Origin: a virus
IMG/VR virus record: IMGVR_UViG_3300012227_000062
Direction: 5' to 3' (one strand)
Length of the DNA: 14,729 bases
Shown here: piece by piece, positions 10,085 to 10,989 of the stretch
How the letters are laid out: the number at the start of each line of letters is the position of its first letter
How positions within the stretch are numbered: position 1 is the first letter of the stretch
Notes under the pieces: model-generated
What the model saw: the letters and a program-made list of their open reading frames with translations, nothing else
Databases searched by the model: none
What the model was told of the DNA's origin: nothing
Translations under genes and position numbers: made by a program

Positions 10085-10342
10085 TCACCCGATCCTTCTT
10101 CGGTCGGTTGAGGGCATGGGTGCGATCTTCCGCACGTAGCACAGCGCCGCCGCAATCCAGTCTTGCGACGGTGCGGGCGCGGGGCGACCAGGTAGCGTTC
10201 TGTAACGCGCGCCACGATCGCCACGCCCCTTTCGCTGAAGCTTCACGACCGGATGCCGGAGCGCAGGCGGGACCTTGGCCCAGTGCTCGGCACACATGGG
10301 GAGCGTTTGCGCCCGCTCGCACTCCGGCACGACGCATTTCAT
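10085..10342 (-). CDS. Small Zn-finger-like protein, 85 aa
   Basis: 'MKCVVPECERAQTLPMCAEHW' gives a C-x4-C-x7-C-x2-H pattern. The ATG at 10342-10340 overlaps the upstream gene's TGA (ATGA on the minus strand). The stop lies 8 nt before the helicase GTG. Only this C-terminal 85-aa part of the 10085..10975 track ORF looks coding. Confidence 0.5.
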   Translation of the reverse strand: MKCVVPECERAQTLPMCAEHWAKVPPALRHPVVKLQRKGRGDRGARYRTLPGRPAPAPSQDWIAAALCYVRKIAPMPSTDRRRIG

Positions 10343-10989
10343 GGCTGCGTCGGTCGGTCGCAGGAGGATCCGGGTGCGATCTCCCAGTCTTCGGCGAGCA
10401 GATCCGCCTCGGTGGCAACCCACGGAAGTCGACGATGAGAAAGGACCGGCGTGCCGCCGACCGAGATGAGGATGTGCTGCTCCTGAAGCACGAGCCACGT
10501 GTCGCCCTTCGTGCGTGAAATGTGCTGCGCGTACGAGGTGAACGGGATACCGCGGGGCGCTAGCCATTCGGTGCGGCAAACGCGGTAGCCGCCTTTCAGG
10601 GCAACGAGCGCCTCCCCAAAATGCATCGGAAGCCTCGTGTTTTTTGACGGCGCCATTTCCACCTGGCAGCGTCGCTTGTGCTCCGCCTTGTGCCCTTCCT
10701 CGAACTCGGCGGCCATGTCGTGACCGTTCGCGATGAGCTCGGCGAGGCTGCGCCCGCACACGGCGCAGCCTTCGTCCGGGAAGGCGCCGCCGAGCCAGCC
10801 GTCGCGCGGAAGGAGCTTCTTGCCCGCGCGTAGCGCAGCGATGAAGTGCGCCAGTTGCTCGTGCGACTGGCCCGCTTCGTAGACGAGCTCGGCGTAGCAC
10901 TCGCGGATGAATTCGCTGGCGAGCTCGTAGTCGATGTCTGCCGGCTCGGTGCCGCACCACTTCTGAAAGGCCCATAGATGCGATCCCAT
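10339..10989 (-). CDS. Two-domain protein. The N-terminus is a Cys-containing domain of unknown function. The C-terminus is a DUF2829 (Tad2-like anti-defence sponge family) domain.
   Basis: The C-terminus 'MHFGEALVALKGGYRVCRTEW....LPWVATEADLLAEDWEI' matches the DUF2829 consensus (FGEAL..LK.G..V.R..W ... PW..SQ.DLLAEDWEIV). I chose the start at ATG 10989-10987 (MGSHLWAF...). The track's longer 342-aa version extends antisense into the MVP gene and is rejected. Confidence 0.6.
   Translation of the reverse strand: MGSHLWAFQKWCGTEPADIDYELASEFIRECYAELVYEAGQSHEQLAHFIAALRAGKKLLPRDGWLGGAFPDEGCAVCGRSLAELIANGHDMAAEFEEGHKAEHKRRCQVEMAPSKNTRLPMHFGEALVALKGGYRVCRTEWLAPRGIPFTSYAQHISRTKGDTWLVLQEQHILISVGGTPVLSHRRLPWVATEADLLAEDWEIAPGSSCDRPTQP

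What the first reader, a model, noticed from the sequence alone, without database searches (positions are those of the whole stretch)
10339..10989. A DUF2829 (Tad2-like sponge) domain fused to an unknown N-terminal domain heads a helicase operon
The C-terminal roughly 85 aa carry the hallmark DUF2829 motifs (FGEAL.ALK.G.RV.R..W ... LPW.AT.ADLLAEDWEI). DUF2829 is the family of the phage Tad2 protein that sequesters Thoeris/CBASS signalling nucleotides. Tad2 proteins are usually stand-alone and about 90 aa. Here the domain is fused to a roughly 110-aa Cys-containing N-terminal domain. The gene is translationally coupled (ATGA) to a Zn-finger ORF and then to a phage-type SF2 helicase. This may be a new anti-defence fusion, or a new role for the sponge fold.
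Basis: partly seen in the sequence, partly recalled or inferred. Interest (0 to 1): 0.6.

Follow-up and report, generated by a model that had tools for sequence, protein, structure and literature searches.

The report
Divergent Tad2-like domain fused to orphan domain
A phage-like DNA fragment encodes a real two-part protein: a rare, uncharacterised cysteine-bearing domain joined to a divergent copy of the phage 'sponge' fold (Tad2) that normally soaks up bacterial alarm molecules, but several of the residues that usually hold the alarm molecule have been replaced.

Summary
Window 10339..10989 (minus strand) encodes a 216-aa protein. Residues 122-204 match Pfam PF11195 (Tad2-like/DUF2829) at E=4e-11, and solved Tad2 structures are its only sequence and fold matches. 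The N-terminal ~118 aa form an orphan module: 7 clusters among 5.8 billion proteins. Five of these are stand-alone and two are fused to a Tad2-like domain. The stop codon overlaps (ATGA) an uncalled 85-aa C-x4-C-x8-C-x2-H ORF, which ends 8 nt before a phage-type SF2 helicase.

- Fusion is not new. Among 80 IMG/VR relatives, 7 are 150 aa or longer, and phrog_872 is an established N-terminally fused family.
- The helicase linkage is not conserved in relatives.
- The ligand pocket is non-canonical. W142, W190 and D196 (SPO1 W25, W73, D79) are kept. Canonical GWNG is EWLA here, with Asn26 replaced by Leu (0 of 80 relatives). WLASQTD is WVATEAD, with the near-invariant Gln replaced by Glu. The only other fused homologue differs at the same positions, but with different residues.

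Most likely this is a mobile-element accessory, probably anti-defence, protein. A Tad2-fold tetramer core with a re-tuned or degenerate pocket would carry four copies of the orphan domain. It is a new variant of a known kind, of moderate interest.

The parts
10339..10989 (-). Complete gene for the 216-aa two-domain protein (stop codon 10339..10341)
   Evidence: Translation. Codon-position GC is 0.67/0.48/0.80, typical of coding sequence in this window. The identical protein is found in two other assemblies.
10717..10989 (-). Orphan N-terminal domain core (aa 1-91): MGSHLWxFQKW, a helical hairpin, then PRD..LGGA...GC..C.R...EL..GH
10627..10716 (-). Linker (aa 92-121) with a predicted helix at aa 94-108
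   Evidence: The pattern EF..GH.AE..RR.QV..APS...RL is shared by the two fused proteins. The helix is predicted. The phrog_1048 match already begins at aa 86.
10378..10626 (-). Tad2-like (PF11195/DUF2829) domain, aa 122-204
   Evidence: Pfam E=4.2e-11. PDB Tad2 sequence hits. The top 16 Foldseek hits are all Tad2, with probability 0.95-1.00.
10561..10566 (-). Codons W142-L143, equivalent to SPO1 Tad2 W25-N26: Trp kept, Asn replaced by Leu (motif EWLA instead of GWNG)
   Evidence: Alignments. In 80 IMG/VR relatives the motif is GWNG in 76, W-N in 78 and W-Y in 2; none has Leu or Pro. The role of N26 is taken from the paper read.
10402..10422 (-). Codons W190..D196 (WVATEAD), equivalent to SPO1 W73..D79 and the canonical WLASQTD: Trp and Asp kept, Gln replaced by Glu, Thr replaced by Ala
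   Evidence: Gln is present at this position in 78 of 80 relatives and Glu in 0 of 80. Ala at the Thr position occurs in 12 of 80.
10085..10342 (-). Possible 85-aa ORF with C3-x4-C8-x8-C17-x2-H20-W. Its ATG overlaps the upstream stop (ATGA) and its stop lies 8 nt before the helicase start
   Evidence: Sequence. Codon-position GC is 0.68/0.60/0.74. There is a weak phrog_18063 match at E=1.7e-3. It is not called in the source assemblies, has no tblastn hit in phages and is not in the protein collection. Coding status is unproven.
8793..10076 (-). SF2 DNA helicase (427 aa), last gene of the minus-strand string
   Evidence: ResIII E=6e-24 and Helicase_C E=1e-13. phrog_16 E=8.5e-81. RadD-like in NCBIfam, below the cut-off. 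tblastn hits in 1664 phage records.
10990..11050 (.). 61-bp divergent intergenic region between the fusion gene and the MVP-like gene
   Evidence: There is no Shine-Dalgarno sequence before the fusion ATG and no sigma-70 consensus hit. By eye, a weak TGGACG-17 nt-TACCAT lies 8 nt upstream of the ATG; this is inference only.

Best explanation
This is an accessory protein of a phage-like mobile element, built from two separable modules.

C-terminal module (aa 122-204). It is a divergent Tad2-fold domain. By homology with solved Tad2 proteins it should form a homotetramer through helix alpha1 and the beta-sheet. It keeps the two pocket tryptophans and the aspartate (W142, W190, D196). It has lost the Asn-Gly and Gln that canonical Tad2 sponges use for polar and phosphate contacts. 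I infer that it no longer binds 3'cADPR in the canonical way. It would either hold a different small-molecule signal or bind weakly, while still acting as the tetramerisation core.

N-terminal module (aa 1-91). It is an orphan helical domain with an invariant Cys31/Cys75-x2-Cys78 set, plus His4 in 6 of 7 members. It is probably a structural metal site. Sister phages make this domain as a stand-alone protein. Fusion would therefore display four copies of it on one particle and co-express two functions early in infection.

Shown: the domain identities, the fusion, the residue substitutions, the rarity and the genomic contexts. Inferred: tetramerisation, metal binding, ligand change and an anti-defence role.
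For: - Tad2-like domain by Pfam, PDB sequence search and Foldseek.
- The structural core motifs F, G, A, L, G, V, R, W...W, D, L, A, D, W are invariant across this protein, P0002, SPO1 Tad2, MoTad2 and a prophage Tad2.
- The substitutions N26 to L/P, G27 to A/K and Q77 to E/P are absent from 80 relatives.
- The PF11195 score is about half that of typical members: 44 and 40 bits against 77-104.
- The N-domain exists on its own in 5 of 7 family clusters, so it is an independent module.
- All contexts are phage-like and sit among nucleotide and DNA-metabolism or accessory genes. These include RadC, DUF4942, MTase, HNH, MazG-like, SSB and helicases.
- The Tad2 family is documented to be functionally plastic. 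Known ligands are 3'cADPR, His-ADPR, N7-cADPR, cGG/cGAMP and cUMP/cCMP (papers read).
- The fusion is conserved at 50% identity in an independent lineage.
Against: - The substituted pocket positions differ between the two fused proteins (L-A/T-E-A against P-K/S-P-L). This looks more like relaxed constraint than selection for one new ligand.
- Glu194 in place of Gln adds negative charge near where phosphates bind in canonical Tad2.
- All experimentally characterised Tad2 sponges whose sequences I could inspect keep GWNG.
- The structure models have low confidence (pLDDT 62-64, 7-sequence alignment). Pocket geometry and Cys clustering could not be examined.
- No defence system or host is known for this contig.
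- No stand-alone Tad2 gene lies within 10 kb of the stand-alone N-domain genes, so there is no independent link between the two modules.
Confidence: 0.4

Rival explanations
1. Scaffold only. The Tad2-like domain has lost ligand binding and serves purely as an oligomerisation module. The biologically active part is the orphan N-domain, for example an inhibitor or regulator of a host or phage protein involved in DNA metabolism.
For: - The polar pocket positions are not conserved even between the two fused proteins.
- The PF11195 score is about half that of typical members.
- One stand-alone N-domain protein (P0004) instead carries a long charged helical tail that could serve the same oligomerising role.
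- The N-domain is the better-conserved half: 64% identity between the two fused proteins against 36% for the C-domain.
Against: W142, W190 and D196 line the pocket in SPO1 Tad2. They are retained in both fused proteins despite only 36% identity. However, the pocket lies at a protomer interface, so these residues could be kept for assembly alone.
Confidence: 0.28
2. Canonical sponge. Despite the substitutions, the domain still sequesters 3'cADPR/gcADPR and inhibits type I Thoeris as SPO1 Tad2 does. The N-domain is an unrelated add-on.
For: The family match. Three of the four named SPO1 contact residues are conserved. A basic residue (R146 here, K in P0002) lies just after the Trp and might replace the lost phosphate contact (inference).
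Against: - Asn is present in 78 of 80 relatives and Gly in 80 of 80.
- A W21A/N22A mutation of HgmTad2 markedly reduces gcADPR binding, and N22/G23 bind the diphosphate (paper read).
- Gln to Glu adds a negative charge.
Confidence: 0.12
3. Replication or recombination accessory. The protein works with the downstream zinc-finger ORF and the SF2 helicase, for example as a loader or regulator. It has nothing to do with immune signalling.
For: - Tight gene packing with the helicase.
- N-domain genes lie next to a helicase in three of five distinct contexts: SF2 here, UvrD in L002/L003 and SNF2 in L007.
- Other neighbours are HNH, MazG-like and SSB genes.
Against: - The helicases belong to three unrelated families.
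- In two cases the helicase is convergent rather than co-transcribed.
- The helicase here has GC3 of 0.64 against 0.74-0.85 for its neighbours, which suggests a separate origin.
- No Tad2-family member is known to act in replication.
Confidence: 0.15
4. Artefact. The fusion arises from a frameshift or mis-assembly that joins two adjacent genes.
For: The window is a single metagenomic contig. The N-domain exists as a separate gene elsewhere.
Against: An identical 216-aa protein occurs in independent ENA and Logan assemblies. A homologue of 50% identity in two further metagenomes has the same architecture and a conserved linker. The codon-position GC pattern is continuous across both halves.
Confidence: 0.02

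Closest known systems
SPO1 Tad2 (Gp34.65; PDB 8SME/8SMF/8SMG/8WJE), the founding Thoeris anti-defence sponge
   Same: It is the best PDB sequence hit (E=1.7e-4, aligned over aa 118-205) and the best fold hit. The Trp-to-Trp spacing is the same (48 residues). W25, W73, D79 and the FGEAL..LK.G..V.R and D.LAEDW motifs are shared.
   Different: SPO1 Tad2 is 89 aa and stand-alone. It has GWNG and WVPSQTD, where this protein has EWLA and WVATEAD. This protein adds a 121-aa N-terminal extension and a 12-aa C-terminal tail.
MoTad2 (PDB 9EIB/8V3E; His-ADPR and cUMP/cCMP sponge) and HgmTad2/AcrIIA7 (8KBI-8KBM; gcADPR plus cGG/cGAMP)
   Same: Same domain family. They show that the fold can be re-tuned to other ligands and can carry second pockets (papers read).
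   Different: Both keep the W-N-G motif. HgmTad2 binds cyclic dinucleotides through a 41-residue insertion that is absent here, where the Trp-to-Trp distance is SPO1-like.
N-terminally extended Tad2-like phage proteins (phrog_872; also profiles phrog_1048 and phrog_30130)
   Same: The architecture is the same: an unknown N-terminal domain followed by a C-terminal Tad2-like domain. The target hits phrog_1048 (E=7e-10) and phrog_872 (E=1.4e-9). An IMG/VR protein (L088) matches phrog_872 end to end at E=5.7e-65.
   Different: Their N-terminal partners (for example M..YIGTK.I.A.PMTR.EY..RGW...) are unrelated to the MGSHLW domain. They also retain canonical GWNG/WLASQTD.
Stand-alone MGSHLW-domain proteins P0003-P0007 (metagenomic phage-like contigs)
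   Same: The N-domain is homologous (E=1e-12 to 7e-30) with the same invariant Cys, PRD and GGA residues.
   Different: They have no Tad2-like domain. Four of them carry an extra hairpin-like insert after the N-terminal motif, and all have unrelated short basic or charged helical tails.

Membership tests
Tad2 / PF11195 (DUF2829) domain family | Sequence match to the PF11195 profile above the gathering threshold | tested here: met
   43.7 bits against a cut-off of 25, E=4.2e-11, profile positions 1-72 of 73. This is low compared with 77-104 bits for typical members.
Tad2 / PF11195 (DUF2829) domain family | [quoted passage not shown] | tested here: met
   The predicted secondary-structure order matches: H124-132, strands, then H194-198. 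The top 16 Foldseek PDB hits are all Tad2, with probability 0.95-1.00 and TM about 0.5 on the target. Caveat: the C-domain of the model has pLDDT 40-65.
Functional Tad2 gcADPR sponge | Ligand-contact residues W25, N26, W73 and D79 of SPO1 Tad2 (equivalent to HgmTad2 W21, N22/G23, W87, D93) | tested here: not met
   W142, W190 and D196 are present. N26 is replaced by L143 and the adjacent Gly by A144. The Gln of WLASQTD is replaced by E194. Asn is present in 78 of 80 relatives, Gly in 80 of 80 and Gln in 78 of 80.
Functional Tad2 gcADPR sponge | Homotetramer with pockets at protomer interfaces | not testable with these tools
   No multimer prediction was available. The alpha1 interface motif FGEAL.ALK.G is conserved.
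Functional Tad2 gcADPR sponge | Binds and sequesters 1''-3' gcADPR or another immune signal, and rescues phage from Thoeris, CBASS or Pycsar | not testable with these tools
   Requires biochemistry and infection assays.
Functional Tad2 gcADPR sponge | Carried by a phage or prophage | tested here: inconclusive
   - No capsid, tail or terminase gene is present on the 14.7-kb contig.
- The gene content is phage-like: phrog_16 helicase and matches to phrog_2319 and phrog_1926.
- RadC is shared with a sister contig.
- The MVP homologue is found only in huge phages and has no plasmid hit.
- Contigs carrying relatives encode M15 peptidase, HNH and SSB.
MGSHLW orphan N-domain family (defined here) | N-terminal MGSHLWxFQKW, then EFI..CY.E...DQLA...R.G..PRD..GGA...C..C | tested here: met
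   All motif elements are present. E=4.6e-42 to P0002 and 1e-12 to 7e-30 to the others.
Co-transcribed helicase operon as a conserved unit | The same gene order (fusion or N-domain gene, zinc-finger ORF, helicase) in relatives | tested here: not met
   No homologue of the 85-aa ORF or of this helicase lies next to any relative. The helicases nearby belong to other families and are convergent.

The most novel reading that the evidence does not exclude
The Tad2 sponge fold has been repurposed in a small phage lineage. Its nucleotide pocket has been rebuilt (Asn-Gly and Gln lost, Glu gained) to capture a signal outside the known Tad2 repertoire, or none at all. It would then act as a tetrameric chassis presenting an orphan Cys3(His) domain that is itself a new anti-defence or helicase-directed module. 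The gene sits head-to-head with a phage-borne major-vault-protein homologue. In eukaryotic vaults the MVP shoulder domain binds NAD+, ADP and ADP-ribose (paper read). The locus could therefore be a two-gene unit for handling NAD-derived nucleotides.
Probability: 0.15. Interest if true: 0.7.

Novelty: new variant of a known kind. Interest (0 to 1): 0.45.

Why it matters
Tad2 is the most widespread known phage sponge family, and its ligand range keeps growing. All characterised members whose sequences I could inspect are single-domain proteins with the GWNG/WLASQTD pocket.

A conserved lineage that keeps the aromatic walls of the pocket but replaces the polar contacts offers a natural experiment on what determines Tad2 specificity. 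Its permanent fusion to another module also raises the question of whether the fold is used for anything besides sequestration.

The orphan N-domain is absent from every curated library searched. It is a candidate new phage accessory module. If the pocket proves dead, the result is a useful caution: a PF11195 hit alone should not be annotated as an anti-Thoeris sponge.

Tried and rejected
- Word-indexed search with the C-domain alone found nothing, so that search was wasted.
- The N-domain profile was scanned against IMG/VR and GTDB species genomes with no hits. The JGI metagenome scan only re-found P0004.
- PADLOC and NCBIfam gave no hit for the fusion protein.
- I looked for a separate Tad2 gene within 10 kb of the stand-alone N-domain genes, using an HMM built from 66 viral Tad2 domains. 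None was found, so there is no Rosetta-stone support for a functional link.
- The 85-aa ORF had no tblastn hit in phages and is not in the 15-billion-protein collection.
- The promoter and terminator scan of 8500..11300 gave nothing above shuffled expectation.
- I checked synteny between the window and relatives' contigs. Only the N-domain gene, RadC and a short piece of one ORF are shared.
- I checked whether the MVP neighbour is conserved beside the sister fused gene, and whether other window genes occur beside MVP in huge phages. Neither is the case.
- My first ORF-length script was misled by tblastn matches that ran across stop codons. I corrected it by anchoring on the FG.A motif.

Full report
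**1. What is there**

The window is a whole 14,729-bp metagenomic contig with 62.5% GC. The finding lies on the minus strand. Positions 10339..10989 encode a 216-aa protein. Its codon-position GC is 0.67/0.48/0.80, normal for coding sequence in this window. The first eleven residues, MGSHLWAFQKW, are almost identical in six of the seven family members. This fixes the ATG at 10989 as the start. No Shine-Dalgarno sequence precedes it, and only 61 bp separate it from the divergent gene at 11051.

**2. The C-terminal domain**

- Residues 122-204 match Pfam PF11195 'Thoeris anti-defense 2-like domain' at E=4.2e-11 and 43.7 bits, against a cut-off of 25.
- A phmmer search of all PDB sequences returns only Tad2 proteins: SPO1 Gp34.65 at E=1.7e-4, then MoTad2, SptTad2 and HgmTad2/AcrIIA7.
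- An AlphaFold2 model built from the only seven available sequences is of low confidence (mean pLDDT 61.6). Even so, its 16 best Foldseek matches in the PDB are all Tad2 chains, with probability 0.95-1.00.
- The domain assignment is therefore secure.

**3. The N-terminal domain**

- Residues 1-118 match nothing in Pfam, PHROGs, NCBIfam or PADLOC.
- An exhaustive phmmer search of 1.84 billion representative proteins finds six relatives. A profile search of 5.8 billion clusters finds the same seven clusters.
- Two of these are fused to a Tad2-like domain: this protein and P0002, at 50% identity. Five (P0003-P0007) lack any Tad2-like domain.
- Four of the stand-alone proteins carry an extra insert of about 45 aa that resembles a duplicate of the following helical hairpin. 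All five end in unrelated tails.
- Invariant residues are C31, C75-x2-C78, P61-R62-D63, G67-G68-A69, F27, I28, Y32, E34, Q45 and R54. H4 is present in 6 of 7 members.
- I infer a small metal-stabilised helical module. This is not shown.

**4. Is the fusion real and is it unusual?**

- It is real. The identical protein appears in separate ENA and Logan assemblies.
- P0002 keeps the same architecture, including a conserved linker, in two further metagenomes.
- It is only moderately unusual. I fetched 80 IMG/VR loci encoding relatives of the C-domain and measured the enclosing ORFs, anchoring on the FG.A motif.
Seven of the 80 are 150 aa or longer.
- One recurrent N-terminal partner (L031, L087, L088) corresponds end to end to phrog_872, at E=5.7e-65.
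- The partner domain here is new, but the architecture is not.

**5. The pocket**

- The SPO1 Tad2 structure paper names W25 and W73 (van der Waals contacts) and N26 and D79 (polar contacts to phosphates and hydroxyls) as the ligand contacts.
- For HgmTad2, N22 and G23 of both protomers bind the diphosphate, and a W21A/N22A mutation markedly reduces binding.
- In three independent HMMER alignments and a MAFFT alignment, these positions map to W142, L143, W190 and D196.
- Among the 80 viral relatives the first motif is GWNG in 76, W-N in 78 and W-Y in 2. None has Leu or Pro. Here the motif is EWLA, and in P0002 it is HWPK.
- The second motif is WLASQTD in 52 of 80, with Gln in 78 of 80. Here it is WVATEAD, and in P0002 it is WEPSPLD.
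- Both fused proteins score about half the typical PF11195 bit score: 44 and 40 bits against 77-104.
- The aromatic walls and the Asp of the pocket are therefore kept. The polar contacts are gone, and they differ between the two fused proteins.
- The Trp-to-Trp spacing (48 residues) equals that of SPO1 Tad2. The long insertion that forms the cyclic-dinucleotide pocket in HgmTad2 is absent.

**6. Surroundings**

- The stop codon of the fusion gene overlaps (ATGA) the ATG of an 85-aa ORF at 10085..10342. That ORF carries C-x4-C-x8-C-x2-H-W, and its own stop lies 8 nt before the GTG of a 427-aa SF2 helicase at 8793..10076.
- The helicase matches ResIII, Helicase_C and phrog_16 at E=8.5e-81, and has tblastn matches in 1664 phage records.
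- The small ORF has its highest GC at the third codon position (0.74) and a weak phrog_18063 match at E=1.7e-3. It was not called by any source and has no relatives, so its status is open.
- The helicase has GC3 of 0.64, against 0.74-0.85 for its neighbours.
- The arrangement is not conserved. P0002 is convergent with a UvrD helicase and P0004 with an SNF2 helicase. P0005 is followed by an HNH endonuclease and lies one gene downstream of a MazG-like gene. P0003 has unknown neighbours.
- The contigs share only the N-domain gene, RadC and a fragment of one ORF.
- No separate Tad2 gene lies within 10 kb of the stand-alone N-domain genes.
- The rest of the window is a run of small plus-strand genes. 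These include RadC, DUF4942 and matches to phage families of unknown function. There is also an ice-binding-like protein and a full-length major-vault-protein homologue.
- No virion gene is present, so 'phage' is likely but unproven.

**7. Mechanism**

My best reading (confidence about 0.4) has three parts:
- The Tad2-fold domain forms the tetrameric core, as in all solved relatives.
- Its interface pocket is retained in outline but re-tuned or weakened, so canonical 3'cADPR capture is unlikely.
- The fusion presents four copies of an independently functional, probably metal-binding, N-domain.

The genomic company and the family's biology make an anti-defence role the most likely setting.

The main rival (0.28) is that the pocket is dead and the domain is only a scaffold. 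In its favour, the substituted positions are not conserved between the two fused proteins. A canonical gcADPR sponge (0.12) and a helicase accessory unrelated to immunity (0.15) are less likely. An assembly artefact is excluded.

**8. Verdict**

This is a new variant of a known kind. A PF11195 hit here should not be read as 'anti-Thoeris sponge' without biochemical evidence.

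Noticed in passing
window 11051..13603 (+), with small ORFs 13613..13963 and 13969..14397 downstream: - This is a full-length (850 aa) major-vault-protein homologue. It matches MVP_shoulder at E=1.8e-29 and Vault_3 at E=1e-10, and is transcribed divergently from the fusion gene.
- Its only matches among 50,697 phage records are three huge uncultured phage genomes: LR756500 (462 kb) and LR756501/LR756503 (735 kb). These share 42% identity over 94-98% of the protein.
- There are no plasmid matches.
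- The flanking genes there are unrelated, and their GC is 24-32% against 62.5% here.
- Viral MVPs have been reported once (preprint seen).
- The eukaryotic MVP shoulder was recently reported to bind NAD+, ADP and ADP-ribose.
   Followed up: partly
window 8793..10076 (-): The helicase has an atypical codon-position GC pattern of 0.72/0.49/0.64. Every other tested gene in the window has GC3 of 0.71-0.85. This hints at a different or more recent origin than its operon partners.
   Followed up: no
window 7793..8650 (+): A 285-aa protein matches the Ice_binding (DUF3494) domain at E=3.6e-71. It has a hydrophobic, signal-peptide-like N-terminus and a Gly-rich linker. It sits on a phage-like contig between two opposing gene blocks.
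   Followed up: no
window 143..3219 (+): An accessory cluster typical of mobile-element entry or anti-restriction regions. It contains an ORF matching the C-terminal part of phrog_2319 and an ORF matching a segment of phrog_1926 ('released from the phage upon host infection', E=1e-16). It also contains RadC-like JAB (E=2.6e-29) and DUF4942 (E=9e-35).
   Followed up: partly
L001 10001..10534; L006 10001..10492; L007 6985..7614 (proteins P0003, P0005, P0004): Stand-alone N-domain proteins contain an insert of about 45 aa that looks like a tandem duplicate of the helical hairpin. Compare PTVADQDLAWLLICEC...DQLTLLVYRLRT with PTPEDRALADAFIHECY...DQLASMIAGLRT in P0003. Three end in short basic-aromatic tails (RPWVKRRPR, WRIPLWQRK, VPLRWRVD), while P0004 ends in a long charged helix.
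   Followed up: partly
window 10978..10989 (-), residues 1-4 of the fusion protein: The conserved start is Met-Gly-Ser-His. After the expected methionine removal it would leave Gly-Ser-His, which fits the X-X-His (ATCUN) amino-terminal Cu/Ni-binding pattern. It is present in 6 of 7 family members. This is speculation only.
   Followed up: no
L055 and L056 (IMG/VR loci), Tad2-like ORFs of 116 aa: These are the only two of 80 viral Tad2-like relatives with a non-Asn residue in the pocket motif (GWYG instead of GWNG). They may be another specificity variant.
   Followed up: no
L001 12565..13773 (-): An IS605 OrfB/TnpB (Cas12f-like) gene lies 2 kb from the stand-alone N-domain gene, in the NCBI MAG contig JBFOMZ010001735.1.
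   Followed up: no
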